Assembly: GCA_016699425.1 (NCBI GenBank)
Contig: CP064975.1
Span: 258,979-322,978, forward strand
Direction of reading: 5' to 3'
DNA: 64,000 nucleotides
Origin: Candidatus Moraniibacteriota bacterium
GTDB lineage: Bacteria; Patescibacteriota; Minisyncoccia; Moranbacterales; UBA1568
The notes beneath the pieces are model-generated. The model saw only the letters and a list, made by a program, of their open reading frames with translations. It was not told where the DNA came from and did not search any database. Shown here one piece after another: positions 3,346-58,393 of this stretch. The position numbers were made by a program, and so were the translations under genes. Within the stretch, counting starts at the first letter, position 1. Every line of letters begins with the position of its first letter.

Positions 3346-4122
3346 GTGGTCGTAACGGATCACTATCTACGACATGCAGAAAAAGGCAAGGGGCGCATGG
3401 GCGGCGACCTCAGCGCTGCAGGAGAAGGAGCCGCTGCTGCTGTGGGCCACACCCTCTCCGAACAGGATGTTATTAAAGCCTATACGGGCACCGTGCCGCG
3501 CACGAAAGATACAGCTCAATTAATTGTGGGGGCGTCACCAACGGAAAGGAAGCTCGTCCCTCGTATCCGCCAGTCTTTGGATGGGTTTGCTGGCTTCTTC
3601 GTTGACCCTCAGAAATCTCCTCTCTGGCAAAAACTTCTAGATGATTTGGCTCATATTCCGAGGGACCTTCCTCCTGACGAACAAAAAAAGGAAATTGCCA
3701 GAATCGGCGAAGAATTTACGACTCAATGGATTGCCTTTGAAGATAAACGTCCTGATGAAGGAACCTTGTCTCCACTTGAGGTGGCGTTAAACATGGCTAA
3801 GAGTACCGTCACTCACAGCAAAATGGCAGAGAGGCTGAAGAGTGGCACCAAAAACGAACTTATCAACGTCACGCATGAAGGGATGCTCACGGCAATGCTT
3901 CGCTACTTCCTCAGGCGAAAAAATGAGGACGGAACCTATACAGAAGGTAAAGAACTCTTAGAGAAGCTTGGGCCAGTACAATATCTGGATGATATTATTA
4001 TCCGAACAGCCACTGACGCCCAAGGAAAACGAACGAGTACGGCCACTTTTCGAGGAGAAGAGTATGTAGTGACTGGAGAAGAGCTTCTTGCTCACCATAA
4101 GGATTCACAAACTTCCTCTTAA
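3346..4122 (+). CDS. Histidine phosphatase superfamily-like protein (phosphoglycerate-mutase-like fold)
   Basis: An LRHAEKG motif resembles the RHG catalytic motif, and a later VTHEGML resembles the second His motif. It lies in a low-GC island and is tightly linked (12-nt gap) to the next gene. Confidence 0.4.
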   Translation: MVVTDHYLRHAEKGKGRMGGDLSAAGEGAAAAVGHTLSEQDVIKAYTGTVPRTKDTAQLIVGASPTERKLVPRIRQSLDGFAGFFVDPQKSPLWQKLLDDLAHIPRDLPPDEQKKEIARIGEEFTTQWIAFEDKRPDEGTLSPLEVALNMAKSTVTHSKMAERLKSGTKNELINVTHEGMLTAMLRYFLRRKNEDGTYTEGKELLEKLGPVQYLDDIIIRTATDAQGKRTSTATFRGEEYVVTGEELLAHHKDSQTSS

Positions 4123-4133
4123 GATATCTGAGT

Positions 4134-5450
4134 ATGCTTCCGGTTGAACAATACCGTAAAACCGTCCGCCGACCATACCCACCCCTGCAGAGTTTTCTTT
4201 TTTTAAAAGGTTTTGCAAAAGCTGATTACTATAAACCTTTTTTTAATGAACCATATGCTCTCACGGAAATAATAGTGACTGGTGATGCCTGGTACTGCTC
4301 TGACCAGCAGCTTGATCACATCGGAGAGCTCACCATGAAAGCTTGGGACACGCCGGAAGGTCTCGCAAAAGTAAAAGAGTTATTTTTTGAACGCGAAAGA
4401 AAACTCCTCGCGACAAAAGACCTTGTGAGTTTTGGTTTGGCCTTTGAAGAATATCAGCCGGCCGTACTGATGATTTCTTACTCTGAGAAAACACTGGATA
4501 TTCACCTTAGGACTTTATTGAAAGAAAAAATTAACCACGTCAAAGTGGAGCAAATCATGAGCGATCTAAATAGCCCCCTGGAGGATAACTTTTATAAAAA
4601 AGAGGAGTTGGATCTCGTCACCTCCTTGAACCTTTCTCATCACGTGAAAAAGTATGCTGGTTTGAATGCTAGATATGGTTCCGAAAAAGTATATACCTTA
4701 GATGAGGCCCAAAAACGTCTCCAAGGTCTTGATAAGAAAAAGTGGATTAAAAACTATCACAGAGAAAAAGAGGAACTTAAGAAAAGAATTTTGGAAATCA
4801 AATTACTCTTGGGTAATGCGGATGCTCATTGGGTAGATGTAGTCCAGTACAGCGTGTATTACCGGACGCAAAGGGCAGACGTGCTCCATTTGTCTACTTT
4901 TAATATGCTTGGCGAATTGAAAAAAGAAGCTAAAAGAGCCAACCTTTCTTATCCTGAAATTTTACAGTGTTCCGTGGACGAAATTATCAACCGTCGCCTT
5001 CCTTCGAGGACGGAGATAAGAAACCGTCAACGAGCTAATGGTTTCGTATTAGAGAAAGGGCAGATCCAGATTGTCACAGGAAAAGAGTACGAGAGAATAC
5101 GCGACTACTTTCCGACAAGTATCAAAGAGAGGAGACTCCTGACGGGGAACACTGCTTATAAAGGACAGGTGAAGGGACCAGTCTGCGTCGTATACTCACT
5201 TCAGGATTACGAGAAGTTTCGAGAGGGCGATGTTTTGGTAGCCGCCATGACTACGCCGGATATGGTCCCTTTAGTAAAAATGGCTTCGGCTGTTGTCACG
5301 GATGAAGGAGGAATTACTTGTCATGCCGCTATTATTGCCCGCGAACTTAAAAAACCTTGTATCATCGGTACCAAAGACGCTACGGCGATTCTGAAGGATA
5401 CTATGGTCGTAGAAGTGGATGCTACGGCGGGTACGGTAAGAGTTCTTTAA
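4134..5450 (+). CDS. Protein with a C-terminal PEP-utilising-enzyme mobile (phospho-His swivel) domain and an unrecognised ~350-aa N-terminal region
   Basis: The C-terminus reads TTPDMVPLVKMASAVVTDEGGITCHAAIIARELKKPCIIGT, matching the phosphohistidine domain of PpsA/PPDK/rifampin phosphotransferase. No ATP-grasp or PEP-binding TIM barrel is recognisable upstream. Confidence 0.6.
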   Translation: MLPVEQYRKTVRRPYPPLQSFLFLKGFAKADYYKPFFNEPYALTEIIVTGDAWYCSDQQLDHIGELTMKAWDTPEGLAKVKELFFERERKLLATKDLVSFGLAFEEYQPAVLMISYSEKTLDIHLRTLLKEKINHVKVEQIMSDLNSPLEDNFYKKEELDLVTSLNLSHHVKKYAGLNARYGSEKVYTLDEAQKRLQGLDKKKWIKNYHREKEELKKRILEIKLLLGNADAHWVDVVQYSVYYRTQRADVLHLSTFNMLGELKKEAKRANLSYPEILQCSVDEIINRRLPSRTEIRNRQRANGFVLEKGQIQIVTGKEYERIRDYFPTSIKERRLLTGNTAYKGQVKGPVCVVYSLQDYEKFREGDVLVAAMTTPDMVPLVKMASAVVTDEGGITCHAAIIARELKKPCIIGTKDATAILKDTMVVEVDATAGTVRVL

Positions 5451-5484
5451 CACACCCCCTTCTTGTACAAGTTGTTTCATAAAT

Positions 5485-6114
5485 TTATTTCTGATTCTGC
5501 AAAGCCAGCTTAATACCAAACGCAACAAGAGCCACTCCCATTATTTTAGAGAGGTAGTACTGCACCTTCGAAAACTTATTACGGACAAGGGGTGCAGAAA
5601 TAATAAATGCAAGGAGAGAAAACCAGATTCCTACAATAAAAGCAATTTCTATGCCGTACATTCCCTGTACAATCAGTGGTGTTTTTACATCAATGACTTG
5701 AGTGAAAATGCTCAGAAAAAAGAGAGTGGCTTTTGGATTGAGAGCATTTGTGATAAAACCTTCTTTTAGAGCTTGAGATAGAGAGATGTTCCCATCTCCT
5801 TTTTCTACGGAAATCTCTTTGAAACTTTCTTTTTTTGTTCTTACCAATTGAATACCAAGATACAATAAGTAAGCAGCTCCAACATATTTAATGATAGAAA
5901 ATAGAATAATGGACTGAGAAATAATAAGGCCAATCCCCAAAAGTGAATAAGCTACATGTACGAGTATCCCTAGCCCTACACCTAAGGCTGTCATGAGTCC
6001 AATCTTACGGGCATTCAGACTGTTCTTTGCTACCACAATAAAGTCTGGCCCTGGGCTTACAGCAGCCAAAAAGGCGATAATTCCTATTGTAATAGCTGGG
6101 AAAAAATACTCCAT
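5485..6114 (-). CDS. LysE/RhtB family amino-acid exporter
   Basis: 209 aa with six TM helices. The N-terminal IGIIAFLAAVSPGPDF motif is typical of LysE-type translocators. The gene is AT-rich relative to the core. Confidence 0.75.
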   Translation of the reverse strand: MEYFFPAITIGIIAFLAAVSPGPDFIVVAKNSLNARKIGLMTALGVGLGILVHVAYSLLGIGLIISQSIILFSIIKYVGAAYLLYLGIQLVRTKKESFKEISVEKGDGNISLSQALKEGFITNALNPKATLFFLSIFTQVIDVKTPLIVQGMYGIEIAFIVGIWFSLLAFIISAPLVRNKFSKVQYYLSKIMGVALVAFGIKLALQNQK

Positions 6115-6518: not shown

Positions 6519-6623
6519 ATGGCGGGGACGGCGGGACTTACCCCTCCGGGGCATAAACTTCTCGTCCCACCATCGTACCAAAAAATCAAAAACCCGACCG
6601 TAAAGGACGGGCTTTTGATTTTG

Positions 6624-6697
6624 CGGGGACGGCGGGACTCGAACCCGTGACCTTCTGCGTGACAGGCAGACGCTCTAACCAGCTGAGCTACGCCCCC
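6624..6697 (-). tRNA. tRNA-Asp (GTC)
   Basis: GGGGGCGTAGCTCAGCTGGTTAGAGCGTCTGCCTGTCACGCAGAAGGTCACGGGTTCGAGTCCCGCCGTCCCCG folds as a cloverleaf with anticodon loop CTGTCAC and discriminator G. It closely resembles E. coli tRNA-Asp. CCA is not encoded. Confidence 0.85.
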
Positions 6698-6862
6698 ATT
6701 TTCTGAACTCACGACCTACAACCGACAACTCACAACGAGAAGAAATGTATTAAAGCATCGCTCACCGTTGTTGGTTGTTCGTGCTGGGTTATCAGTTTTT
6801 TTGGTACCAGGGGCGAGATTCGAACTCGCGACCCCGGGCTTACTCGCCCCGTACCGAAACAG

Positions 6863-6935
6863 TAGCAGGGGTGGGGATCGAACCCACGACATCAGGCTTA
6901 TGAGTCCTGTGCTCTACCAACTGAGCTACCCTGCC
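6863..6935 (-). tRNA. tRNA with CAT anticodon (elongator Met or Ile2/lysidine type)
   Basis: GGCAGGGTAGCTCAGTTGGTAGAGCACAGGACTCATAAGCCTGATGTCGTGGGTTCGATCCCCACCCCTGCTA forms a standard cloverleaf with anticodon loop CTCATAA and a G1-U72 wobble. Confidence 0.75.
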
Positions 6936-7159
6936 GGAAATGTTTTGGTACGGGGCGAATCCCGCTGCTCCCTGCCTGCCGGCAGGCAGGTAACCAACTG
7001 AGCCCCGCCCGCATGATTCGCTTGCTCATCAAGCGTATCGGGCGGGTACCCTGGCGAGGTTTATACGATGAAACCCTGACCGCGTCGCAAGGCACGGAAA
7101 TAAAGCGAGGAGCGGGGAAGATGCCACAGTATCTGTCACCTGCTGATGGCTATATTTGT

Positions 7160-7233
7160 TGCGGGGGGTGGATTTGAACCACCGACCTCTTGGTTATGAG
7201 CCAAGCGAGCTGCCAGACTGCTCTACCCCGCTG
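7160..7233 (-). tRNA. Initiator tRNA-fMet (CAT)
   Basis: AGCGGGGTAGAGCAGTCTGGCAGCTCGCTTGGCTCATAACCAAGAGGTCGGTGGTTCAAATCCACCCCCCGCAA is near-identical in layout to E. coli tRNA-fMet. Position 1 is unpaired against A72 and the T-loop is TTCAAAT. Confidence 0.8.
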
Positions 7234-7496
7234 TATATGATCTCTAGGAACTTCCGACCACCCTTTAAACTTTTGAGATAGTTTTCCCTCTTTCGCGCTT
7301 CGGTGTAACTCGCATAGTCTTCTTTGTGAACGAGTACCCATTGTTGGTGTCTCTTGGTCCACTGGGAGCGACCCTGATTGTGAGCAGTAATCCTCTCCGT
7401 AACGTCAGCGGAGATACCGATGTACCTGCGCCCATTTTCGGATTGTATTACATAAACGCTGAACGGTAAACTCGTGTCGAGCATAGGGAGTCTCAT
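7194..7496 (-). CDS. Small GIY-YIG nuclease (YhbQ/UPF0213-like) inserted at tRNA-fMet
   Basis: MRLPMLDTSLPFSVYVIQSENGRRYIGISADVTERITAHNQGRSQWTKRH...TEARKRENYLKS carries the GIY..YIG and conserved Arg/Glu motifs. The start ATG lies in a CTCATGAG anticodon-loop mimic of a degenerate tRNA-fMet 5'-half copy (7513-7537). The stop TAA is the TAA of the CTCATAA anticodon loop of the intact tRNA-fMet. The track ORF 7194..7673 is an artefactual upstream extension. Confidence 0.7.
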   Translation of the reverse strand: MRLPMLDTSLPFSVYVIQSENGRRYIGISADVTERITAHNQGRSQWTKRHQQWVLVHKEDYASYTEARKRENYLKSLKGGRKFLEIIYSGVEQSGSSLGS

Positions 7497-7637
7497 GAGC
7501 CAATCCCGCCCGGGCGGGACAGACTGCTCTACCCCGCTGTATATTTGAGAACCTATAACCCACCACCCACAACCTACGACGAGACCTACTTTCTTCTTGC
7601 TGTCGGTTGTTAGTCGTGAGTTGTCGGTTATCTCAAG

Positions 7638-7711
7638 TGGGTGATCATGGACTCGAACCATGGACCTCGACATTATCAGTGTCGCGCTCTAACCACCTGA
7701 GCTAATCACCC
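7638..7711 (-). tRNA. tRNA-Ile (GAT)
   Basis: GGGTGATTAGCTCAGGTGGTTAGAGCGCGACACTGATAATGTCGAGGTCCATGGTTCGAGTCCATGATCACCCA folds as a cloverleaf with anticodon loop CTGATAA. Confidence 0.85.
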
Positions 7712-7880
7712 GCTATTGGATGATCTACTCCTCCTGATCGAGTAACAGACATAGGCGATCGCTAGACCACTGGCCTGTCACACTGGGGGGAGAAGCGTAT
7801 CACCCATTGAAAAGCACCCTGAATCCTACAATATCTCTCCAAAACAATCAAGCTGAAACGGGATAACTCATACATGAATG

Positions 7881-7956
7881 TGGTGGACCGTGCCGGATTC
7901 GAACCGGCGACCTCCGCGTTGCAAACGCGGCGCTCTACCAACTAAGCTAACGGCCC
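7881..7956 (-). tRNA. tRNA-Ala (TGC)
   Basis: GGGCCGTTAGCTTAGTTGGTAGAGCGCCGCGTTTGCAACGCGGAGGTCGCCGGTTCGAATCCGGCACGGTCCACCA has the G3-U70 Ala identity pair, anticodon loop TTTGCAA and an encoded CCA. Confidence 0.9.
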
Positions 7957-23378: not shown

Positions 23379-23470
23379 TGGGCCAACTGAGAGTTTATGA
23401 CTTGAAAATGGGGAAGAGTTTACCTTGTTTGATTGCATTAACTCATAGGGGGGAGTAGCCTAGGGGAACT

Positions 23471-24019
23471 ATGGACATCCTCTCGCATGGGCTTTATGGT
23501 GGGGTCGCCTTCGGCCGGCGGAGTCGGATCAGTTACTGGCTCGCGTTCTTCTTTGGGATTGCACCGGACCTCTTTTCGTTCGGGCTTTTCTTTGCCCTGA
23601 CCATCCTCGGTCTGGCTGAGCATCCGGACTGGCGGTCGGGCCAGCACCCTGATCCTGCTGGTATCCCGGGCTATGTCCACGCGCTCTACAACGGCACGCA
23701 CAGCCTCGTCATCTTCGTGGCCGTGTTCGCTCTCGTCTGGCTCATTCGGAAGAAACCGCTCTATGAGATGTTCGGCTGGCCACTCCATATCCTCGTCGAT
23801 ATCCCGACTCACTCCGAGAAATTCTTCCCCACCCCGTTCCTCTGGCCGGTCTCGGACTTCCATGTGAATGGCCACAATTGGAGTGATCCGCGCATCTTCA
23901 TCCCCAATGTCATCTTCCTCATCGGACTCTATCTCTGGTTCTATGTCATCCGTCCGCGCCGCGTTCGGCAGGCTCAGACAGTAGAGGAGAAGGTTCATCA
24001 ATCCGTTGCTTCCGAGTGA
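23471..24019 (+). CDS. Membrane-bound metal-dependent hydrolase (DUF457/YdjM-like)
   Basis: Multi-TM protein with conserved His/Asp (HSL...HILVDIPTH). Confidence 0.55.
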   Translation: MDILSHGLYGGVAFGRRSRISYWLAFFFGIAPDLFSFGLFFALTILGLAEHPDWRSGQHPDPAGIPGYVHALYNGTHSLVIFVAVFALVWLIRKKPLYEMFGWPLHILVDIPTHSEKFFPTPFLWPVSDFHVNGHNWSDPRIFIPNVIFLIGLYLWFYVIRPRRVRQAQTVEEKVHQSVASE

Positions 24020-24027
24020 AGGCTGGC

Positions 24028-24056
24028 TTGAAAAAGGGTGTTAGTAGGAGTAGAAT
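24028..24056 (+). promoter_or_regulatory. Sigma-70-like promoter (TTGAAA-N17-TAGAAT) for the DUF3800 gene
   Basis: cTTGAAAaagggtgttagtaggagTAGAATcgg. The same TTGAAA/TAG[AG]AT architecture recurs at 24884-24911. Confidence 0.5.
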
Positions 24057-24079
24057 CGGATGAAGTAAAAATCTCTGCC

Positions 24080-24709
24080 ATGTTGGTATTTATCGATGAA
24101 TCCGGAGATACGGGGCTGGATATCGCCAGAGGGGCAACACGCTATTTCTCTATGGTTTTGGTAGCATTTGAGGACCGAGAAGAAGCACAGCTTTGCGATG
24201 AGCGCATCGCTCTCTTGCGTCACGAGCTCGGTAAGCCTCCAGGATTCGAGTTTCATTTTCACGAGAATTCTGATCGGATTCGCGAGGCCTTTTTCAAAGC
24301 CGTCTTACCGTACGGATTCTTTTACTACGGTATTGTCATCAACAAGGGAAAACTTTTCGGGGAGGGATTCCACAACAAGGAATCGTTCTACAAGTATGCC
24401 TGCGGACTGCTTTTTGAGAATGCAAAGGATAAGCTGGAAAATGCAACAGTCATTATTGATGAATCCGGGAGACAGCTCTTTAAGTATCAATTGGCGAACT
24501 ACCTGAAGCGTCGTATGAATGCGGAAAGCGTGACGACTCGGATCAAGAAGGTGAGGATGCAGGATTCCCATCGAAACAATCTCGTTCAGCTTGCCGATAT
24601 GGTAGCGGGAGCGGTGACGCGGAGCTTGAATGAAGGTAAAAAAGACAAGACCGACTATCGGAAAATCGTGCAGTCGCGCGAAGTCTATGTCCAGATTTGG
24701 CCGAAATAA
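24080..24709 (+). CDS. DUF3800 family protein
   Basis: MLVFIDESGDTG N-terminus and C-terminal QLADMVAGAV motif. The track's GTG start at 24038 lies inside the promoter, so ATG 24080 is preferred. Confidence 0.65.
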   Translation: MLVFIDESGDTGLDIARGATRYFSMVLVAFEDREEAQLCDERIALLRHELGKPPGFEFHFHENSDRIREAFFKAVLPYGFFYYGIVINKGKLFGEGFHNKESFYKYACGLLFENAKDKLENATVIIDESGRQLFKYQLANYLKRRMNAESVTTRIKKVRMQDSHRNNLVQLADMVAGAVTRSLNEGKKDKTDYRKIVQSREVYVQIWPK

Positions 24710-24883
24710 GGAAAAAGAAAGCTCCCGGACCTATCCCTTGCGGGAAAGCGGCGATGAACGCCACAGTTTGGTTCGGGAGCACTTCCACCTATAAAATACG
24801 CTTTGCAGACCGTTTTGTCAACACTGAGTCAGCACTGATGTGGCAGTAAGTGAGCAGTCCAGAGTGGGCTAAAAAATTTGGCT

Positions 24884-24911
24884 TGAAAATGGGATAAAAG
24901 GGGAGTAGGAT
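24884..24911 (+). promoter_or_regulatory. Sigma-70-like promoter (TTGAAA-N16-TAGGAT) for the NYN gene
   Basis: gcTTGAAAatgggataaaaggggagTAGGATagg, 10 nt upstream of the ATG at 24922. Confidence 0.45.
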
Positions 24912-24921
24912 AGGGTTCAAT

Positions 24922-25413
24922 ATGAAACAGACTGGAAACAACTTCGCCTTCATTGATGCACAGAACCTGAACCTTTCTGTGAAACGACTTGGTTGGCGTC
25001 TGGATTATGCGCGTTTCAGAGTGTACCTGCGGGAAAAGTATGGCGTCAGCAAAGCGTACATGTTCATTGGTTTCATGGAAGAGCAGTCGAGTCTCTACCG
25101 ATCCCTCCAGGAGAAAGGCTATATCCTCATATTCAAGCCGACGCTTCGTCACAAGGATGGGACCATCAAGGGGAATTGTGATGCTGAACTCGTCCTGCAG
25201 GCGATGATCGATTATCAGGCGTACAAGAAAGCCGTGGTTGTCACGGGTGATGGAGATTTTCATTGCCTCATCCGGTATCTGATCGACAAAGAAAAATTAG
25301 AACAGCTTCTTGTCCCAGATCAGGCGCACTACTCGGCTCTCTTGAAGCGGTTCCCTTCGGGATTTCTTGCTTTTATTTCCCAGCTGCGGAATAAGCTGGA
25401 ATTTCGCCCCTAA
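24922..25413 (+). CDS. NYN-domain (LabA-like PIN-fold) putative ribonuclease
   Basis: FAFIDAQNL ... VVVTGDGDF with conserved acidic residues of the NYN domain. Confidence 0.65.
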   Translation: MKQTGNNFAFIDAQNLNLSVKRLGWRLDYARFRVYLREKYGVSKAYMFIGFMEEQSSLYRSLQEKGYILIFKPTLRHKDGTIKGNCDAELVLQAMIDYQAYKKAVVVTGDGDFHCLIRYLIDKEKLEQLLVPDQAHYSALLKRFPSGFLAFISQLRNKLEFRP

Positions 25414-25721
25414 AAAGAAAAGAACCCCGTAAGGACAGGACCTTAAAGGGCGCTTTTCGTCGTAATTCTACTAGAAGAGTAGCGCCGACGAAGTGCTTTG
25501 TCAAGGGCGGAAAAGTGCAAAGAGGTGGCTTTTTCTCATCTCTAACCAACTCATCCCACGCCCTCGTTTTTGTGGCTTGCCACGGAGCCCGGTTTCGGTG
25601 GTAGCGTGGCTTGAAAATGGGGTAAAAGCTTGCCCTGTTAGATTTGCGTTATCTCATAGGGGAGAGTAGGGTGATTCCTCGGGCTTTGGTATACAATGGA
25701 AAGGCTTGAATAAGGATATTT

Positions 25722-26804
25722 TTGACTATGGAAAAGAAGTCCTCGAATACGAATTTGAATAAGGCAAGCAAGGCAAAGAAAGATGAGTTTTATACTCAGC
25801 TTGTTGATATTGAAAAAGAGCTCAAGCACTGCAAAGATCAGTTTCGTGGCAAAGGGGTTTATTGTAATTGTGATGATCCTTTTGAAAGTAACTTCTTCAA
25901 GTATTTTGCAACCAACTTCAATGCACTTGGATTAAAGAAACTTATTGCTACTAGCTATAAGCCGTCCCCCATAGCTAATACGCAACTAAATCTATTTGGT
26001 GATATTACAGTACTATCTACGCCAAAAGGTCGTCCTAAGATAACCGCCAACAAATTCATTATCAATGAAGTTGATGATATAGATGGAGATGGTGCATTTG
26101 ATTTGCGTGATATTGCCGAACAGCTCAAGGCTAATAAAAACAATGAATGGGCGCCATTAAAGGGAGAGGGAGACTTTAGAAGTAAAGAAAGTATAGAGTT
26201 GCTAAAGCAGGCTGACATCGTGGTGACAAATCCGCCGTTCTCTCTATTTCGGGAATATGTTGCACAGTTGATGGAGCATAGCAAGAAATTTCTTATTCTC
26301 GGAAACCAGAACGCCATAATTTATAAGGAAATTTTCAAGTTCATAAAGGAGAACAAAATGTGGCTTGGGTATGACAATGGTGGAACGAAGTGGTTTCAAG
26401 TCCCAACCGATTACAACATACCAACAGAATCAAGAATAAAAACCGAAAACGGAATAAAGTACTTCAGCATGGGAAGTATAGTGTGGTTTACAAACATGGA
26501 TACAACTAAACGCCATGAGGAGCTGACTTTATATAAAAAATATTCATCAGAAGAGTACCAAAAATACGATAATTATGATGCAATTGAGGTACCAAGGTTT
26601 CTTGATATTCCGATGGATCACGATGGTGTAATGGGTGTGCCGATTACTTTTCTTGATCGGTATAACCCGGAACAATTTGAAATTGTTGGATCAAATCGAG
26701 GCATAGACCAAGACTCGAATAAAATATATGGCCGAGGATCTTTTTTGAATGGTAAAGAAACCTTCAAGCGACTTTTTATAAAAAATAGAATGGCAAAAAA
26801 GTAA
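25722..26804 (+). CDS. N6-adenine DNA methyltransferase (NPPF motif)
   Basis: DIVVTNPPF catalytic motif IV, an N-terminal DEFYTQ region, and low GC. Confidence 0.75.
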   Translation: MTMEKKSSNTNLNKASKAKKDEFYTQLVDIEKELKHCKDQFRGKGVYCNCDDPFESNFFKYFATNFNALGLKKLIATSYKPSPIANTQLNLFGDITVLSTPKGRPKITANKFIINEVDDIDGDGAFDLRDIAEQLKANKNNEWAPLKGEGDFRSKESIELLKQADIVVTNPPFSLFREYVAQLMEHSKKFLILGNQNAIIYKEIFKFIKENKMWLGYDNGGTKWFQVPTDYNIPTESRIKTENGIKYFSMGSIVWFTNMDTTKRHEELTLYKKYSSEEYQKYDNYDAIEVPRFLDIPMDHDGVMGVPITFLDRYNPEQFEIVGSNRGIDQDSNKIYGRGSFLNGKETFKRLFIKNRMAKK

Positions 26805-26805
26805 T

Positions 26806-27909
26806 ATGAAAATCGAACTAAACAGAATTCCGGTTCGTGAAGTGGTTACGGGCTACAAAGATAGTGCCGAGGAGGGCGTTGTTGCCTATGAGGGTAAGCT
26901 TGATGTGCGACCGAAGTACCAGCGTGAATTTGTTTACAAAGATAAGCAGCGCAATGCGGTAATTGATACTGTCCGAAAGGGATTTCCCCTTAATGTGATG
27001 TATTGGGTAAAGACCGACGAGGGAAATTTTGAAGTGCTCGATGGGCAACAAAGAACAATAAGTTTAGGTCAATATGTAAACGGTGATTTCTCTGTGGATT
27101 TTAATGGTCGCCTTGCTATGTTCCATAATCTCACCAAAGAGGAACAGGAGCAGATTCTGAACTACGAACTGATGATTTATTTCTGTGAGGGGACAGATAA
27201 AGAAAAGCTGGATTGGTTCAAGATCATAAATATTGCTGGTGAAAAGCTGACCGATCAAGAGTTGCGTAACGCTGTTTATACCGGTTCTTGGCTTTCAGAT
27301 GCAAAACTCAAATTCAGTAAATCAAACTGTGCCGCATACCTTTTGGCCAATGATGGCGGCTCACTAGTAAATGGTTCGCCAATTCGGCAAGAGTATTTGG
27401 AGACCGCTCTTCTATGGATTAGTAACGGCGAGATTGAGGATTATATGGCCAAACACCAGCACGACGAGAACGCTGAAGAGTTGTGGCAATATTTTCAAAA
27501 TGTCATTGCCTGGGCACATAAAATTTTCACCAAATATCGCAAAGAGATGAAGGGGGTTGAGTGGGGCAGGTTGTACAATAGGTATAAAGATACCGCTTAC
27601 GATTCTCGAGAGATTGAGGAGAAAACACTGGAACTTATCAATGATGATGAAGTTCAGAGTTTAAAAGGCATCTACGAATATATTTTGACGGGCGAAGATA
27701 AACATCTAAATCTTCGTCAATTTGAGGATAAGACAAGAAGAAAAGCTTACGAAAAACAAAAAGGCAAATGTGTTTGGTGTAAAAAAACTTTTGAATTTGA
27801 AGAAATGGAAGCCGACCACATTACCCCCTGGCACGAGGGTGGCAAAACAACTGCGGAAAATTGCCAAATGCTCTGCAAGCAAGATAACCGAACGAAATCA
27901 GGAAAATAG
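26806..27909 (+). CDS. DUF262 (ParB-like, DGQQR motif) plus C-terminal HNH nuclease protein; putative restriction or modification-dependent nuclease
   Basis: VLDGQQRT motif near the N-terminus. C-terminus CVWCKK...ADHITPWHEGGKTTAENCQMLCKQDN is an HNH motif. The start is 2 nt after the methyltransferase stop, so the genes are translationally coupled. Confidence 0.7.
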   Translation: MKIELNRIPVREVVTGYKDSAEEGVVAYEGKLDVRPKYQREFVYKDKQRNAVIDTVRKGFPLNVMYWVKTDEGNFEVLDGQQRTISLGQYVNGDFSVDFNGRLAMFHNLTKEEQEQILNYELMIYFCEGTDKEKLDWFKIINIAGEKLTDQELRNAVYTGSWLSDAKLKFSKSNCAAYLLANDGGSLVNGSPIRQEYLETALLWISNGEIEDYMAKHQHDENAEELWQYFQNVIAWAHKIFTKYRKEMKGVEWGRLYNRYKDTAYDSREIEEKTLELINDDEVQSLKGIYEYILTGEDKHLNLRQFEDKTRRKAYEKQKGKCVWCKKTFEFEEMEADHITPWHEGGKTTAENCQMLCKQDNRTKSGK

Positions 27910-28100
27910 ACCGCCGTGGGGATTTTCAATGAAGAGAAGCAAATTTAAACTTGCCTTTTTCTTTTATTTGTGGCAGTGTGAGAGTATAGAGTAAAAAATA
28001 AAAACCACTCCAAACACAGAAGATCGGAAAGAGTCATAATCCCCAATGCGATTATACCACCACCCCGGACTTCCGGGGTGGTTTTGTTTCATTGTAAGTT

Positions 28101-29285
28101 ATGTGGGTAAAGACATCAGGAGTAAGCGCAGTTGAGATTGACGATGATGTTTTTCGAACAATTCTCAGCTTTTATCCGGAAGAAAAATTGCATGAGTCAG
28201 AATTCTTTCAGAGCTGTTTTAGTCATGGCTCTGTAAGCTATACATTGTTGCGCGCAGAGTCAAATAAAATATTTCTGCCTTGGCAGCTATTCTTCCTGAA
28301 TAAAAAGAATCTCAAGAAGCAGCTCAAGCATATAAATGAACAACGCGAAGACAGGTTGTCTGCGGCCTTTTTTACAAAAAGAAAAGGCTCAGGAGAACAT
28401 ATGTCCAGAAGGATAGTGGATAGACTCATTCGTCTTCAGGGGTTTGTTGTTTCAAAAAAGAAATATCAAAAGAATAGTTTTTGTAATTCGCTTAATTCAT
28501 TAAGCCCAACCGATGCAGCCAATTCTCTCATTGAATACTTCGGGGTTGATCTAGTGGAATTCAGAGGCAAGAAGACAAAGCGAGAAGCACTCGAGTATTT
28601 AATTAAAAAAATAGGAGCAGGACAGATTAATGTGTCTCGGGGAGTAAGAGTCTTGCTTCCTATTTATCAACAAATCGACAAGATATACAAAAACACCAGT
28701 GGATTCGCCCTAAAGGATGACTGCCTGCCTTTTATATTTTTACCAGGAGATATAAATCCTGAAGAGGCTACAGGAAGGCAAATATATAGTCTGTTTTATC
28801 TTCTGGCTTCCATTGGGATAAATGACTATAGCTTTTTTATAGATCAAGATCTTGAAGTTCAGGTAGTAGGCGCAAAAAATCTTGAGAAATGGAAGCATGA
28901 TCTGGTTTCATGCATCATATTGCCAACAGACTCGTTGACTACAATACCGACTAGTCTGGACGATATTATGAAGATGAGCGACAAATATAAGGTAACTCCA
29001 ACAGCTGTCATTGTTGTTCTTAGGGCTCGGGGCATCATTAATAGTGCACTCTTCGACTTCTTAAAGAGTGAATTAAACCTATCTGTAAAAACCTTTCAAC
29101 AAGGATGGTCCGCAAAAATCTCTACTTCTGTAAAAAAATTTTGTGGTCAAGAAGCTTCTGCCGCCATAAATATGCTTATCCGGGGCGGAAAACTGAAATC
29201 AATCACAGCCCAGTATCTTATCTTTGGCCGGGTGAATAAAAGTCAGTATAAGAAATATTTTTCTCAGATACAGAACACTGTATGA
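28101..29285 (+). CDS. Hypothetical protein (394 aa), partner of the downstream PIN-like protein
   Basis: Low-GC ORF with a 4-nt overlap with the next gene. No confidently recognised motif. Confidence 0.4.
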   Translation: MWVKTSGVSAVEIDDDVFRTILSFYPEEKLHESEFFQSCFSHGSVSYTLLRAESNKIFLPWQLFFLNKKNLKKQLKHINEQREDRLSAAFFTKRKGSGEHMSRRIVDRLIRLQGFVVSKKKYQKNSFCNSLNSLSPTDAANSLIEYFGVDLVEFRGKKTKREALEYLIKKIGAGQINVSRGVRVLLPIYQQIDKIYKNTSGFALKDDCLPFIFLPGDINPEEATGRQIYSLFYLLASIGINDYSFFIDQDLEVQVVGAKNLEKWKHDLVSCIILPTDSLTTIPTSLDDIMKMSDKYKVTPTAVIVVLRARGIINSALFDFLKSELNLSVKTFQQGWSAKISTSVKKFCGQEASAAINMLIRGGKLKSITAQYLIFGRVNKSQYKKYFSQIQNTV

Positions 29286-29713
29286 AAGTGATAGATACAA
29301 ATTTTATTATTAACGCATATCGCGAAGAAGTTCTCTTGAAGAACGAATACTTTGCTGCACCCGATGTGTTAGAGGAGCTAAAGATTGATCCAGGCATTAA
29401 AATTCCAAGTAATGTGAAGGACGGAAGAGGGGGTATTTTTTTCAGTATGCCAGTCTATCTAGGGAACTATAGCTACTTTTTGAATAAGTACTGCCCCTCA
29501 TTTTATAATATGACTAGTTTTGGAGACATCTCTACCTTAGCCTTCATAAGAACAGTTCTTGAGAATATCAAAAGACAAGCGACGCTGCCTACGATGGAAG
29601 AAAATATTATTTTGTTTGCAGACGATGAGAAACTCTCGAAGAGGGTGATAAAAGAGTTTTCTAGCGAAGTCAAGATTATTAAATTTGCTAATTCGGAAAA
29701 GAATCTTTTATAG
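29282..29713 (+). CDS. PIN-like domain protein (possibly DUF4411-type)
   Basis: MKVIDTNFII N-terminal strand with a conserved Asp. Further acidic residues (VLEEL, LFADDE) are consistent with a PIN fold. Confidence 0.4.
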   Translation: MKVIDTNFIINAYREEVLLKNEYFAAPDVLEELKIDPGIKIPSNVKDGRGGIFFSMPVYLGNYSYFLNKYCPSFYNMTSFGDISTLAFIRTVLENIKRQATLPTMEENIILFADDEKLSKRVIKEFSSEVKIIKFANSEKNLL

Positions 29714-29916
29714 ATACGAAAACTAGTTGGTTATTGTACTAAAAGTAGTAAAGAATAATGACGAAACTCTATCTCGATATCGATCGGGTGTAGCAAAGGG
29801 AATAACCAGGAGCCTCTCCTCTCTTTTCCGACCAACAACATTCCGACATTCTTGAGAATGTGAGAATGTTTCTCGATCGAGATTGGCGGTATGTGGGGCG
29901 GGTGTAGAATAGGGGC

Positions 29917-30501: not shown

Positions 30502-30634
30502 CTCGACTCTCTCTCGATATCAAATGGTGCTGATCGGGCGGGGAGGGCGGTGGCCCCTTTTCCTGTTTCTCTTGATACTGATATTCCAATATTCTTGAGA
30601 ATGTGAGAATGTTGTGCTAGGGTAGGGGTGAAAT

Positions 30635-30937
30635 TTGGTGTCATGGATAATTATGGCTGGAATTAAAACTTACAAGCAGCTGGAGCGGTATTTCAAGGGT
30701 GTCGCCAACCATCGTCGTATCAGCATCCTACTGCTCGTCAGTCAGTCCGAGGGGATCGCGCTCGATGATATGAGCCGGCGCCTCGATTGCAATTTGAAGA
30801 CCGTCTCTGAGCATACGCGCCGCCTCGTCCAGGCCGGACTTTTGAATAAAACCTACCAGGGCCGCACGGTCGCGCACAGCCTCTCACCTTATGGGAAAAA
30901 GATGCTCGCTTGTCTCGAGATATTCCAACATTCTTGA
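30635..30937 (+). CDS. ArsR/SmtB family transcriptional regulator
   Basis: YKQLERYFKGVANHRRISILLLV...LDDMSRRLDCNLKTVSEHTRRLVQAGLL is a winged-HTH of the ArsR family. Confidence 0.8.
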   Translation: MVSWIIMAGIKTYKQLERYFKGVANHRRISILLLVSQSEGIALDDMSRRLDCNLKTVSEHTRRLVQAGLLNKTYQGRTVAHSLSPYGKKMLACLEIFQHS

Positions 30938-31032
30938 GAATGTGAGAATGTTACCCATTTGGTAATCTTGAGAGGGGCCTGAGAATAACAAGGTGTAGAA
31001 TAGAGGGGGCTAATACATCACATCAATCCATT

Positions 31033-57646: not shown

Positions 57647-58333
57647 GTGAGAACCTGGTATACTTTGTTTATAATGATGACTCTGGATAACAAAACTACC
57701 TTTGCAGTAATCGCCATGCTCATAAACGCAGGGTGTTTTATTAATTACGTACGAAGTATCCTGCAACATAAAACGAAACCACATGCTTACACTTGGCTTA
57801 TCTGGTGTATCACACAAGGAACGGCTGTAGCAGCTATCTGGTATGGGAATGGCGGTTGGGGAGCTTGGGCATTGATAGTATCCACAATCTTTGTTGCTCT
57901 TGTATTTTTACTTTCTCTTCGGTACGGAACACGAAACATAACCAGGAGCGATACCGCTATTCTTTTCTTCGCCCTGCTTGCAATTGTCGTATGGTGGCAA
58001 TTAGATAACCCATATCTCGCCGTGGCTATGGTTTCCATCATTGATGTTATTGGGTATATCCCTAGTTGGCGGAAATCTATTAGCGCTCCCTGGTCTGAAG
58101 CAGTGTCATCGTGGATAGCTTCCCCAGTTGGGTATATCTTTGCCATGCTTGCGCTGATGGAATACAATTTTCTCACCCTTACCTACCCCGTATTACTTGT
58201 GCTGGCGAACCTTATCCTAGTAACGATTTGTCTTTACTACAGAAGAACAATTCCTAAGCCACTACCAATAGGCTCTAAATATTGTCTGTCGGATGGGATA
58301 ACTAAAAAGAGCCTTACAAAAGCCTCTTTTTAG
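57647..58333 (+). CDS. Hypothetical multi-TM membrane protein (island gene 1)
   Basis: About seven hydrophobic helices in a low-GC region. Confidence 0.45.
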   Translation: MRTWYTLFIMMTLDNKTTFAVIAMLINAGCFINYVRSILQHKTKPHAYTWLIWCITQGTAVAAIWYGNGGWGAWALIVSTIFVALVFLLSLRYGTRNITRSDTAILFFALLAIVVWWQLDNPYLAVAMVSIIDVIGYIPSWRKSISAPWSEAVSSWIASPVGYIFAMLALMEYNFLTLTYPVLLVLANLILVTICLYYRRTIPKPLPIGSKYCLSDGITKKSLTKASF

Positions 58334-58393
58334 TGCTCGTAAAGTACGCGTGCTATATTGAGTATGTATTTATGAAGAGACAAACTTAGCCAT

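What the first reader, a model, noticed from the sequence alone, without database searches (positions are those of the whole stretch)
24020..29720. Low-GC defense-like island: DUF3800, NYN nuclease, N6-adenine methyltransferase coupled to a DUF262-HNH nuclease, and a hypothetical plus PIN-like pair
Six consecutive same-strand genes with lower GC than the flanks. The NPPF methyltransferase stops 2 nt before the start of a DUF262 (DGQQR, ParB-like NTPase) plus HNH protein. That architecture is known from GmrSD/type IV-like and BREX/Dnd-associated nucleases, but here it is paired with a methyltransferase like a type II R-M system. A 394-aa unknown protein overlaps a PIN-like protein by 4 nt, which is toxin-antitoxin-like or abortive-infection-like coupling. 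DUF3800 and NYN proteins are common in defense islands. The combination may represent an uncharacterised composite defense locus.
Basis: partly seen in the sequence, partly recalled or inferred. Interest (0 to 1): 0.65.

Follow-up and report, generated by a model that had tools for sequence, protein, structure and literature searches.

The report
Defence island of four separate modules
This low-GC stretch in a candidate-phyla-radiation bacterium is a real defence island, but it is four independent modules of known kinds rather than one composite system, and the one unusual module is a toxin-antitoxin-like pair whose large partner is a protease look-alike that has lost its catalytic site.

Summary
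There are six intact same-strand genes at 24.0-29.7 kb, and this is the lowest-GC stretch of the window (0.41 against 0.54).

I find four modules that do not travel together elsewhere:
2. A lone NYN nuclease gene.
3. A widespread type II restriction-modification pair: an EcoRI-family m6A methyltransferase plus a DUF262-HNH endonuclease. The endonuclease matches a type II REase model over its full length, and the pair occurs on plasmids of several phyla.
4. The 394-aa/143-aa pair.

The 394-aa protein is a distant relative of ImmA/IrrE-type antitoxins: RosmerTA RmrA and M. tuberculosis VapB52 (PDB 9VZY). The inferred domain order is the same, but all 209 full-length relatives checked lack the HEXXH zinc site. 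The 143-aa partner has a PIN fold with an invariant D-E-D-D quartet.

This pair is strictly conserved. It usually sits beside restriction-modification genes, and in 6 of 24 loci between hsdS and hsdR.

Verdict: a new variant of a known kind, of moderate interest.

The parts
24028..24056 (+). Promoter-like site (TTGAAA-17-TAGAAT) upstream of the DUF3800 gene. It belongs to a repeated 'GGCTTGAAAA' motif that also lies upstream of the NYN gene (24879), the methyltransferase gene (25607) and the host gene at 23471 (copy at 23398).
   Evidence: This is a consensus match only; function is not shown.
24080..24709 (+). DUF3800 protein (RNase H-like fold according to the literature). The N-terminal DE motif (FIDESGD) and the C-terminal QxxD motif (VQLAD) are both present.
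   Evidence: Pfam PF12686 E 1.9e-15. PADLOC candidate PDC-M04A E 1.6e-10. Homologues of 62-70% identity start at MLVFIDESGD. Fold and motifs are taken from PMC10910872 and PMC7736814.
24717..24780 (-). DUF3800-IX RNA (Rfam RF02968). It has an outer stem enclosing two hairpins and is followed by a U-run. It is convergent with the DUF3800 gene and ends about 8 nt from that gene's stop codon.
   Evidence: Score 50.0 bits against a gathering score of 36.8, E 1.1e-8. The RNA is present at the same relative place in 4 of 4 metagenome loci that have sequence downstream of a DUF3800 homologue, at 45-55 bits. Five of 21 pairs show compensatory changes, and the G-U pairs fit only the minus strand.
24793..24821 (-). 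Promoter-like site (TTGACA-17-TATTTT) placed to start transcription a few bases upstream of the RNA motif.
   Evidence: Consensus match only.
24922..25413 (+). Stand-alone NYN-domain (LabA-like) putative ribonuclease. It has its own promoter-like site at 24883-24911.
   Evidence: Pfam PF01936 E 2.3e-12. PADLOC NYN model E 1.2e-6. It is not adjacent to DUF3800 homologues elsewhere.
25722..26804 (+). EcoRI-family N6-adenine DNA methyltransferase (NPPF motif). This is the modification half of a type II restriction-modification pair.
   Evidence: Pfam PF13651 E 3.5e-135. PADLOC MTase_II PDLC03297 E 8.9e-122, covering model positions 2-329 of 332.
26806..27909 (+). DUF262 (ParB/GmrS-like, DGQQR) plus C-terminal HNH endonuclease. 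This is the restriction half of the pair.
   Evidence: PADLOC REase_II PDLC03418 E 2.3e-141, covering model positions 1-372 of 372. Pfam GmrSD_N plus HNH. 224 plasmid records hold homologues, and among the 20 best, at 40-67% identity, 11 matches run onto an annotated EcoRI-family methyltransferase gene.
28059..28089 (+). Intrinsic-terminator-like hairpin (10-bp stem with 8 G-C pairs, then TTTGTTT) between the endonuclease gene and the 394-aa gene. The T-rich tail ends at 28089, 11 nt before the ATG at 28101.
   Evidence: and the sequence. It is not conserved upstream of homologues, so it marks the end of the restriction-modification unit rather than forming part of the next module.
28101..29285 (+). 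394-aa RmrA/VapB52-like protein, the presumed antitoxin or sensor. By secondary structure I infer three regions: an N-terminal region (two short strands, then five helices ending at residue 81), a middle ImmA/IrrE (M78)-like region with the HEXXH site replaced by Y-L-L-A-S, and a C-terminal four-helix region. The boundaries are my inference.
   Evidence: AF2 model pLDDT 92.3, pTM 0.90. Weak fold hits to IrrE/PprI and PrpR and to phage IrrE-like models. Among distant relatives, 36 of 79 hit Peptidase_M78 and many hit RmrA models, down to 9e-13. The superfamily profile hits 9vzy_A (VapB52) at E 3.6e-6, with its HEFVH aligned to hydrophobic residues. None of 209 full-length relatives has H[ED]xxH at that place.
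29282..29713 (+). 143-aa PIN-fold protein, the presumed toxin or effector nuclease. Its start overlaps the stop of the 394-aa gene (ATGA).
   Evidence: AF2 model pLDDT 88.7. The top 14 Foldseek PDB hits are all PIN domains: HARP RNase P, Rrp44, Nmd4. The family profile's top PDB sequence hits are Fcf1/Utp24 and the 1o4w PIN domain. D5, E32, D82 and D115 are invariant across close and distant partners.

Best explanation
The region is a horizontally acquired defence island in a Candidatus Moraniibacteriota genome. It consists of four functionally independent modules placed side by side.

(1) DUF3800 plus the DUF3800-IX RNA. This is a known protein-RNA association whose biochemical function is unknown.

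(2) A lone NYN ribonuclease-like gene.

(3) A classical type II restriction-modification pair. The EcoRI-family methyltransferase would mark host adenines. The DUF262-HNH enzyme would cut unmarked incoming DNA. The activity and the target sequence are inferred, not shown.

(4) A two-gene toxin-antitoxin or abortive-infection module of the ImmA/IrrE-antitoxin plus PIN-toxin kind. Its closest characterised relatives are RosmerTA and M. tuberculosis VapBC52. By analogy with VapBC52, the 394-aa protein would hold the PIN nuclease inactive, with its N-terminal helical region gripping the toxin and its C-terminal four-helix region covering the active site. An infection signal would release the nuclease to cut RNA, probably tRNA, and stop growth.

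The difference from those relatives is shown directly in the sequence. The whole clade has lost both zinc-binding histidines and the catalytic glutamate, and the predicted position of the third zinc ligand is not conserved. The ssDNA-triggered self-cleavage that frees VapC52 therefore cannot run on this protein's own active site. I infer that release happens by one of two routes. Ligand binding to the dead-protease/HTH core may cause a conformational change. Alternatively, another protease may degrade or cut the antitoxin, possibly at the invariant Arg94 at the inferred junction of the N-terminal and middle regions.
For: Independence of the modules:
- Searches show that the modules do not co-occur elsewhere.
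- Two GC strata, and separate promoter-like sites and a terminator.

Restriction-modification pair:
- Full-length matches to curated type II methyltransferase and endonuclease models.
- The pair is found, with a one-base gap or overlapping genes, in several phyla.

DUF3800 RNA:
-. The association is described in PMC5737381.

The 394-aa/143-aa pair:
- The partner lies directly downstream, with overlapping or abutting reading frames, in 25 of 27 close loci. The other two are cut by a contig end.
- A downstream gene of 139-153 aa also follows the four distant relatives whose contig extends far enough (18-26% identity). Three of these partners match the p143-family profile, and all four share the acidic quartet in the alignment.
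- High-confidence models of both proteins.
- PIN fold and acidic quartet.
- Link to M78, RmrA and CapP through distant relatives.
- Link to VapB52 (9VZY) at E 3.6e-6 over the middle and C-terminal regions. The published VapB52 layout, with five helices in the N-terminal domain and four in the C-terminal domain, matches the helix counts in the model.
- HEXXH is absent in all 209 relatives checked.
- Defence context: in 24 non-redundant loci the commonest neighbours are HsdR, HsdM, HsdS, Eco57I-type and other DNA methyltransferases, and serine recombinases. In six loci the pair is followed directly by hsdR, and in at least three of these it is preceded by hsdS.
Against: - No experiment exists on any member of this clade. 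Toxicity, neutralisation and anti-phage activity are all inferred.
- The window's 394-aa protein matches RmrA only at E 0.017 and matches no Pfam family. The relation rests on a chain through distant relatives.
- The PIN partner does not match DUF4411 or VapC52 by sequence.
- An N-terminal HTH is not detected by any HMM.
- The strict one-to-one pairing differs from the promiscuous toxin swapping reported for RosmerTA.
- The endonuclease's target and its sensitivity to methylation are unknown. Palindrome statistics in the window were uninformative.
Confidence: 0.72

Rival explanations
1. One composite, co-operating six-gene defence system. In this reading the methyltransferase, the DUF262-HNH nuclease, the DUF3800 and NYN proteins and the PIN pair depend on one another.
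For: All six genes are on the same strand, contiguous and low in GC. The PIN pair very often sits next to restriction-modification genes in other genomes, so some functional interplay with restriction is conceivable.
Against: No related locus of the 394-aa protein carries any of the other four genes. The restriction-modification partners that do occur are of different types (I, IIG, II), so the association is with restriction-modification in general and not with this pair. DUF3800 relatives lack the NYN gene. The restriction-modification pair occurs alone on small plasmids. There are two GC strata, separate promoter-like sites and a terminator.
Confidence: 0.07
2. The 394-aa/143-aa pair is mainly an addiction or stabilisation module. 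It would keep the neighbouring restriction-modification genes or the island in the genome by post-segregational killing, and would not sense phage.
For: It has classical type II toxin-antitoxin features: antitoxin first, 4-nt overlap, PIN toxin. It is inserted inside type I restriction-modification operons and lies next to serine recombinases. With no active peptidase there is no obvious built-in trigger.
Against: The closest characterised relatives, RosmerTA and VapBC52, give phage resistance. A 394-aa, multi-region antitoxin with many invariant residues is more than a labile neutraliser would need. The close family gave no match in IMG/VR viral contigs; whether it occurs on plasmids was not checked.
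Confidence: 0.2
3. The DUF262-HNH protein is a modification-dependent (type IV, GmrSD/BrxU-like) nuclease, and the adjacent methyltransferase is an unrelated orphan or anti-restriction enzyme.
For: The N-terminal domain matches GmrSD_N. DUF262 nucleases such as GmrSD, BrxU and SspE are modification-dependent (PMC12707154).
Against: The best match, full-length and far stronger, is a type II REase model (E 2.3e-141, against 1e-27 or weaker for the other DUF262 models). The nuclease domain is HNH (PF01844), not DUF1524. The methyltransferase gene is adjacent in widely separated bacterial groups, with a one-base gap or overlapping reading frames. That is the signature of a cognate pair, and an m6A-dependent nuclease beside an m6A methyltransferase would be self-destructive.
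Confidence: 0.08
4. The 394-aa protein is itself an enzyme using a different active site, or a transcription regulator, and the 143-aa PIN protein is its cofactor or processing nuclease in a non-defence, housekeeping role.
For: There is an invariant basic patch (K93, R94, S102, R104, R108) and many invariant residues outside the dead peptidase site. Bacteria of the candidate phyla radiation have many unassigned conserved genes.
Against: The distribution is patchy: Patescibacteria, plus genome bins labelled Flavobacteriaceae, Methylophilus and FCPU426. The composition is foreign to this host. The neighbours are restriction-modification, Abi, recombinase and toxin-antitoxin genes, not housekeeping genes.
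Confidence: 0.05

Closest known systems
M. tuberculosis VapBC52 (Rv2515c/Rv2514c; PDB 9VZY/9VZZ; Singh et al., NAR 2026, PMC13273310)
   Same: The operon order is the same, with the large antitoxin first. The antitoxin is about 400 aa with the same inferred order of regions: a five-helix N-terminal part, an IrrE-like middle part and a four-helix C-terminal part. The toxin is a PIN nuclease of about 145-150 aa with four acidic residues. A profile of the superfamily aligns to VapB52 over the middle and C-terminal regions at E 3.6e-6.
   Different: VapB52 binds Zn through HEXXH (H216, H220), E245 and a Cys229 switch, and cuts itself when ssDNA binds. In this clade the three HEXXH catalytic positions are Y/L, L/M and V/C/L, and the predicted third-ligand position is not conserved. 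The toxin here is not a recognisable DUF4411 or VapC52 relative by sequence. No N-terminal HTH is detected by HMM.
RosmerTA (RmrA Zn-peptidase antitoxin plus RmrT toxin; Millman et al. 2022; Ernits et al. 2023)
   Same: It is a two-gene toxin-antitoxin-type defence system with an ImmA/IrrE-type antitoxin of about 360-400 aa. Distant relatives of the 394-aa protein hit several PADLOC RmrA models collinearly, down to 9e-13. An association of the ImmA antitoxin node with PIN-like toxins is reported.
   Different: The window protein itself reaches only E 0.017 against RmrA. The HEXXH site is absent. RosmerTA antitoxins swap among many unrelated toxins and vary in gene order. Here every locus whose contig reaches past the large gene (29 in all) has a small PIN-type gene downstream, and the same family was confirmed by sequence in 28 of them.
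HTH-DUF955 (COG2856) plus PIN-like (DUF4411, COG2405, PIN_14/20/26) modules predicted by Matelska et al. 2017
   Same: A gene with a protease-like domain lies upstream of a PIN-like gene, often in defence islands and next to type I restriction-modification genes.
   Different: Those modules carry an intact zinc peptidase and a recognisable HTH. The PIN family here is not one of the Pfam-defined families (no Pfam hit; one distant partner has only a faint PIN_4 hit).
CapP/CapH regulator of CBASS (IrrE-family peptidase activated by ssDNA)
   Same: The peptidase-like fold family is shared. 15 of 79 distant relatives hit the PADLOC capP model.
   Different: CapP is an active protease that cleaves a separate repressor. 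Here there is no catalytic site, and the partner is a nuclease rather than a repressor.
Type II restriction-modification: EcoRI-family methyltransferase (PF13651) plus DUF262-HNH endonuclease (PADLOC MTase_II PDLC03297 / REase_II PDLC03418)
   Same: Both proteins match the models over their full length (E 1e-121 and 1e-141). Gene order and tight spacing are the same as on plasmids of Sulfitobacter, Aeromonas, Gordonia, Variovorax, Lactobacillus and others.
   Different: Nothing structural differs. Identity to the plasmid copies is only 40-67%. The recognition sequence is unknown.
GmrSD / BrxU / SspE (DUF262-DUF1524 type IV enzymes)
   Same: The N-terminal DUF262/ParB-like domain with DGQQR is shared.
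   Different: The C-terminal nuclease is a canonical HNH (PF01844), not DUF1524. A cognate methyltransferase is present. The protein is 367 aa and matches a type II model far better.
DUF3800-IX RNA motif (Rfam RF02968; Weinberg et al. 2017)
   Same: The score is above the gathering threshold. It sits next to a DUF3800 gene, covaries, and has a 3' U-run.
   Different: None. This is an ordinary member. The function of this RNA class is still unknown.

Membership tests
Type II restriction-modification system | A DNA methyltransferase with an N6-adenine catalytic motif (NPPF/Y) | tested here: met
   VVTNPPFSLF is in the translation. PF13651 E 3.5e-135. MTase_II E 8.9e-122.
Type II restriction-modification system | An adjacent endonuclease belonging to a family catalogued as a type II REase | tested here: met
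   PADLOC REase_II PDLC03418, E 2.3e-141, covering 1-372 of 372. The HNH and DGQQR motifs are intact.
Type II restriction-modification system | The methyltransferase-endonuclease pairing is conserved in other replicons | tested here: met
   Among the 20 best plasmid matches, 11 run onto an annotated EcoRI-family methyltransferase gene. In the Sulfitobacter plasmid the two genes overlap by 4 nt.
Type II restriction-modification system | Sequence-specific cleavage that is blocked by the cognate methylation | not testable with these tools
   This needs enzyme assays or methylome data. Palindrome avoidance in the window was uninformative.
GmrSD-type type IV restriction enzyme | DUF262 N-terminal domain | tested here: met
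   PF03235 E 4.1e-17.
GmrSD-type type IV restriction enzyme | DUF1524 C-terminal His-Me nuclease domain | tested here: not met
   There is no DUF1524 hit. The C-terminus is HNH: PF01844 E 2e-12 and HNH_5.
GmrSD-type type IV restriction enzyme | Acts alone on modified DNA, with no cognate methyltransferase | tested here: not met
   A methyltransferase gene ends 1 nt upstream, and the pairing is conserved. Modification dependence itself is not testable here.
RosmerTA (RmrA/RmrT) | The antitoxin matches the RmrA profiles | tested here: inconclusive
   Window protein: PDLC03947 at E 0.017 only, residues 255-324 against model positions 233-304. Distant relatives of the same superfamily reach 9e-13 on several RmrA models, collinearly.
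RosmerTA (RmrA/RmrT) | Zn-peptidase (M78) domain with HEXXH | tested here: not met
   The M78-like region is present: 36 of 79 distant relatives hit PF06114. HEXXH is replaced in all 209 full-length relatives checked, and reads Y-L-L-A-S in the window.
RosmerTA (RmrA/RmrT) | A two-gene operon with a toxin partner | tested here: met
   The overlapping downstream PIN gene is present in every locus where the contig allows.
RosmerTA (RmrA/RmrT) | Toxicity of the partner, neutralisation by the antitoxin, and phage resistance | not testable with these tools
   This needs expression and phage-challenge experiments.
VapBC52-type toxin-antitoxin system (IrrE-peptidase antitoxin plus PIN toxin) | A three-domain antitoxin of about 400 aa: helical N-terminal domain, IrrE-like middle domain, four-helix C-terminal domain | tested here: met
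   The AF2 model (pLDDT 92) has five helices before residue 81 and four helices at 340-391. The superfamily profile aligns to 9vzy_A residues 186-373 at E 3.6e-6. No 3-D superposition could be run.
VapBC52-type toxin-antitoxin system (IrrE-peptidase antitoxin plus PIN toxin) | Zn site (HEXXH plus Glu plus a Cys switch) that drives ssDNA-induced self-cleavage | tested here: not met
   Both His and the catalytic Glu are absent, and the predicted third-ligand position is not conserved. The equivalent of the Cys229 switch was not mapped.
VapBC52-type toxin-antitoxin system (IrrE-peptidase antitoxin plus PIN toxin) | A PIN-fold toxin with conserved acidic active-site residues | tested here: met
   All of the top 14 Foldseek hits are PIN domains. 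D5, E32, D82 and D115 are invariant.
VapBC52-type toxin-antitoxin system (IrrE-peptidase antitoxin plus PIN toxin) | The toxin belongs to DUF4411 (PF14367) | tested here: not met
   None of the 22 partners hits PF14367, even at E up to 5. VapC52 is not among the PDB sequence hits.
DUF3800-IX RNA (RF02968) | Covariance-model score above Rfam's gathering threshold | tested here: met
   50.0 bits against 36.8, E 1.1e-8, with the full model length 1-67 matched.
DUF3800-IX RNA (RF02968) | Lies next to a DUF3800 gene, and the structure is supported by covariation | tested here: met
   It starts 8 nt after the DUF3800 stop codon. The arrangement is the same in L034, L035, L036 and L038. Five pairs show double changes.
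NYN domain (PF01936) | Match above the Pfam gathering score, with the acidic motifs present | tested here: met
   48.1 bits against 24.2. FIDAQN and GDGDF are in the translation.

The most novel reading that the evidence does not exclude
The HEXXH-less VapB52/RmrA-like protein and its obligate PIN partner may form a distinct, widespread two-gene immune system that has so far gone unnamed. About 740 clusters at 50% identity match the profile; of the 150 best listed, the full-length ones checked all lack HEXXH. The close family is mostly from Patescibacteria. In this reading the dead protease domain has become a pure sensor. It would bind a trigger, such as ssDNA or DNA fragments, and release the nuclease without any proteolysis. 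Its frequent insertion between hsdS and hsdR would mean it acts as a second line that fires when restriction is under way or is being inhibited.
Probability: 0.2. Interest if true: 0.7.

Novelty: new variant of a known kind. Interest (0 to 1): 0.42.

Why it matters
Three of the four modules are ordinary. The restriction-modification pair and the NYN gene add nothing new. The DUF3800 gene with its RNA is one more instance of a protein-RNA association whose function has been open since 2017, here in a bacterium of the candidate phyla radiation.

The fourth module is the useful one. The only mechanism shown for this kind of antitoxin (VapB52, 2026) depends on zinc-dependent self-cleavage. A large clade conserves the inferred architecture, the gene pairing and the toxin's active site, yet has discarded the protease site. 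That gives a natural test of which part of the mechanism is essential. It also points to non-proteolytic activation in a family of toxin-antitoxin and defence systems.

The pair's recurrent position inside type I restriction-modification operons makes a link between restriction and abortive infection testable.

Tried and rejected
- **Direct annotation of the last two proteins.** Pfam, PHROGs, PADLOC, NCBIfam and PDB sequence searches gave nothing usable. Progress came only through profiles of distant relatives.
- **Mobility signatures at the island borders.** There is no tRNA within 16 kb, no integrase, and no flanking direct repeats. How the island inserted is unknown.
- **Viral origin.** No relative of the 394-aa family or of this DUF3800 protein was found in IMG/VR contigs.
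- **DUF3800-NYN as a conserved pair.** Rejected. The plasmid hits of the two proteins fall in different organisms, and close DUF3800 loci lack an NYN gene.
- **A conserved leader or attenuator upstream of the 394-aa gene.** Rejected. The hairpin at 28059-28082 is not found upstream of homologues.
- **Guessing the endonuclease target from palindrome avoidance.** No palindrome is clearly depleted (lowest ratios 0.55-0.58, with expected counts of 11-14), so this was inconclusive.
- **Naming the REBASE prototype of the DUF262-HNH family from the literature.** Not found.
- **N-terminal XRE-type HTH in the 394-aa protein.** No HTH_3 hit in 79 relatives, only scattered weak winged-helix hits. Left open.

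Full report
**Source and observation**

The 394-aa protein is identical to a hypothetical protein (locus tag IPJ68_01370) of a Candidatus Moraniibacteriota metagenome-assembled genome, on a 1.22-Mb contig. This phylum belongs to the Patescibacteria/Parcubacteria group.

The domain calls are right:
- DUF3800, E 1.9e-15.
- NYN, E 2.3e-12.
- EcoRI_methylase, E 3.5e-135.
- GmrSD_N (DUF262) plus HNH.

The last two proteins have no Pfam, PHROG or PDB sequence match.

The composition differs from the flanks. GC is 0.475-0.484 for DUF3800, NYN and their spacers. It is 0.36-0.42 for the other four genes. The flanking YdjM-like and TPR genes are 0.57. The 5.7-kb stretch is the GC minimum of the 64-kb window, about 3 sd below the mean.

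The methyltransferase stop is 1 nt before the endonuclease ATG. The last two genes overlap by ATGA.

**Module 3: the restriction-modification pair is ordinary**

In fact the nuclease matches PADLOC's type II REase model PDLC03418 over its whole length (1-372 of 372, E 2.3e-141). The methyltransferase matches MTase_II PDLC03297 (E 8.9e-122). Other DUF262 models score far lower (1e-27 or weaker).

A tblastn search against plasmids finds 224 records. The 20 best are at 40-67% identity, from Macrococcoides, Chryseobacterium, Sulfitobacter, Aeromonas, Gordonia, Variovorax, Lactobacillus and others. In 11 of these the match runs onto an annotated 'adenine-specific methyltransferase EcoRI family protein' gene. 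On a 17-kb Sulfitobacter plasmid the two genes overlap by 4 nt and have no other defence gene nearby.

The C-terminal nuclease is HNH, not the DUF1524 domain of GmrSD-type type IV enzymes. I conclude that this is a classical type II pair of a known family. Its target sequence is unknown. Palindrome counts in the host part of the window were uninformative.

An Rfam scan of 23-31 kb gives one match above threshold. It is DUF3800-IX RNA (RF02968) at 24717-24780 on the minus strand, at 50.0 bits against a gathering score of 36.8, E 1.1e-8. It begins 8 nt beyond the DUF3800 stop codon and is convergent with the gene.

Five metagenome loci encode DUF3800 proteins 62-70% identical to this one. In all four that extend past the stop codon, the same RNA lies in the same place and orientation, at 45-55 bits.

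The five sequences fold into an outer stem enclosing two hairpins. Five of 21 pairs show double compensatory changes, and several G-U pairs fit only the minus strand. A U-run follows the structure. A TTGACA-17-TATTTT promoter-like site sits just upstream on that strand.

Weinberg et al. described eleven unrelated RNA motifs associated with DUF3800 genes and could offer no function for them (PMC5737381). DUF3800 is reported to have an RNase H-like fold with DE and QxxD motifs. It appears as a retron type VII partner and as an accessory of Cas12a2 and Cas13 loci. Both motifs are present here (FIDESGD, VQLAD). This is a known association of unknown function.

**Module 2: the NYN gene stands alone**

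None of the DUF3800 loci has an NYN homologue. Plasmid hits of the two proteins fall in different organisms. DUF3800, NYN and the methyltransferase each have their own copy of a 'GGCTTGAAAA...' promoter-like motif, which also precedes the host gene at 23471. I treat the NYN gene as a single-gene ribonuclease-like element with no assignable system.

**Module 4: a strictly conserved pair**

The 394-aa protein has about 125 homologues at 35-46% identity. All are about 400 aa, none has a Pfam domain, and most are from Patescibacteria.

- In the 27 related loci fetched (24 non-redundant), a homologue of the 143-aa protein lies immediately downstream in 25. The other two are cut by the contig end. 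No locus holds a relative of any other island gene.
- A profile search of 1.84 billion cluster representatives finds 743 at E ≤ 1e-3 and 187 at E ≤ 1e-10.
- Five members at only 18-26% identity were looked up. Four have an overlapping or abutting downstream gene of 139-153 aa. The fifth contig ends 60 nt into a downstream gene.
- These distant partners share the pattern of the close ones, and D5, E32, D82 and D115 are invariant across all of them.

**What the two proteins are**

The 143-aa protein:
- It models confidently (pLDDT 88.7).
- Its 14 best Foldseek hits in the PDB are all PIN domains: HARP protein-only RNase P, Rrp44, Nmd4.
- The family profile's best PDB sequence hits are Fcf1/Utp24 and the PIN domain 1o4w, matching the first strand (DTN) and the last (TxD..L).
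- Together with the acidic quartet, this makes it a PIN nuclease of a family not covered by Pfam.

The 394-aa protein:
- It models at pLDDT 92.3, pTM 0.90.
- Fold hits are weak but consistent: IrrE/PprI and M. tuberculosis PrpR in the PDB, and phage IrrE-like models in BFVD (probability 0.85-0.98).
- Among 79 distant relatives, 36 hit Pfam Peptidase_M78. Many hit PADLOC RmrA models (best 9e-13), and 15 hit capP. The RmrA matches are collinear in proteins and models of the same length.
- The window protein itself reaches only E 0.017 on RmrA.
- A profile of the distant relatives hits one solved chain, 9vzy_A, at E 3.6e-6 over residues 186-373.

**The VapBC52 comparison**

9VZY is the M. tuberculosis VapBC52 complex (Rv2515c/Rv2514c), published in 2026. 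VapB52 has three parts:
- a five-helix N-terminal domain that binds the toxin;
- a middle IrrE-type peptidase domain (HEXXH with H216 and H220, plus E245 and a Cys229 switch) with an HTH motif;
- a four-helix C-terminal domain that occludes the PIN active site.

ssDNA activates the peptidase. The peptidase cuts off the N-terminal domain, probably at a conserved FR motif. The DUF4411-type PIN toxin is then freed to cleave tRNAs, and overexpressing it protects M. smegmatis from phage D29.

The 394-aa model has the same helix counts: five helices before residue 81, and four helices at 340-391. The gene order, with the antitoxin first, is also the same.

**The difference: no catalytic site**

In the alignment to VapB52, its LLHEFVH lies opposite hydrophobic residues of the superfamily. 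In the window the stretch reads G-R-Q-I-Y-S-L-F-Y-L-L-A-S, so His becomes Tyr, Glu becomes Leu, and the second His becomes Ser.

None of the 79 distant or 65 close sequences has HEXXH there. Across 209 full-length members, only four have any H[ED]xxH motif, and all four are at unrelated positions. The column counts show Y/L, L/M and V/C/L at the three positions. There is no conservation at the predicted position of the third ligand.

The flanking M78 hallmarks are kept: the invariant Arg226, and the motif E(I/F)L(L/M)P. So is a near-invariant Arg94 at the inferred junction of the N-terminal and middle regions (65 of 65 close sequences, 76 of 79 distant ones). That is roughly where VapB52 has its FR motif. 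This correspondence is my inference and is not shown.

**Context of module 4**

I took the ORFs nearest the pair on each side, generally three per side (129 proteins from 24 non-redundant loci). The commonest Pfam families are:
- HsdR domains (7-8 proteins);
- N6_Mtase (7);
- Methylase_S (7);
- Eco57I (4);
- N6_N4_Mtase (3);
- serine recombinases (5).

In L008, L010, L017, L021, L023 and L026 an HsdR gene starts within about 25 nt after the PIN gene. In at least three of these loci an HsdS gene ends just before the 394-aa gene. Elsewhere the neighbours include Abi_2, AIPR, a Schlafen-type helicase, HicA and Panacea.

The window's arrangement, directly after a restriction-modification pair, is therefore typical. 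The restriction-modification type varies from locus to locus, so the tie is to restriction-modification in general. No relative was found in viral contigs.

**Mechanism**

Shown:
- The architecture, the pairing, the intact PIN site, the lost peptidase site and the defence neighbourhood.

Inferred by analogy with VapBC52 and RosmerTA:
- The large protein neutralises the PIN nuclease.
- Infection releases the nuclease, and RNA cleavage arrests the cell.

Inferred from the missing site:
- Release cannot use self-proteolysis.
- I favour a conformational release on ligand binding by the dead-protease/HTH core.
- The alternative is degradation or cutting by another protease.

**Novelty**

The configuration of an ImmA-type antitoxin with a PIN toxin is documented (Matelska 2017; Ernits 2023; VapBC52). 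New here, as far as the libraries and papers available to me show, are three things: a large clade with a dead peptidase, an obligate partner from an unclassified PIN family, and frequent insertion within type I restriction-modification operons. PADLOC-DB v2.0.0 (2023) has no model for either protein. I could not check newer catalogues.

Overall this is a new variant of a known kind, set in an otherwise ordinary defence island.

Noticed in passing
window 29837-29870, 30580-30613, 30919-30952: Three copies of a 34-nt sequence (GATATTCCAAYATTCTTGAGAATGTGAGAATGTT, 88-100% identical), partly palindromic. They lie just upstream of the TPR gene (29917), a MarR/ArsR-type winged-helix gene (30635) and the next gene (31033). 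They look like shared operator sites of a small regulon outside the island.
   Followed up: partly
window 23398-23458, 24024-24059, 24879-24914, 25607-25669: A repeated promoter-like motif (TGGCTTGAAAA...; and TTGCRTTAWCTCATAGGGGRGAGTAG) lies upstream of a host gene and of three island genes. The foreign genes appear to use host-type promoters.
   Followed up: partly
window 57647-59755: A second low-GC stretch (0.44-0.46) holds two + strand ORFs of 228 and 453 aa with no Pfam match.
   Followed up: partly
window 4001-6000: A third low-GC stretch (0.415) encodes a protein with a PEP-utilising mobile domain and a LysE-type translocator. This looks metabolic, not defensive.
   Followed up: partly
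L029 5779-7216 (minus strand): One distant relative of the pair sits next to a bona fide HTH_3 plus Peptidase_M78 gene (358 aa) with a 108-aa partner. A dead-peptidase module and an apparently intact one are thus neighbours in one island, together with Abi_2 and a Dam-type methyltransferase.
   Followed up: no
window 6623-7956: A cluster of five minus-strand tRNA genes (Asp, Met, Met, Ile, Ala), about 16 kb from the island and not at its border.
   Followed up: no
L035 5948-6624: In one metagenome contig the DUF3800 gene and its RNA lie about 2.3 kb upstream of a 16S rRNA gene.
   Followed up: no
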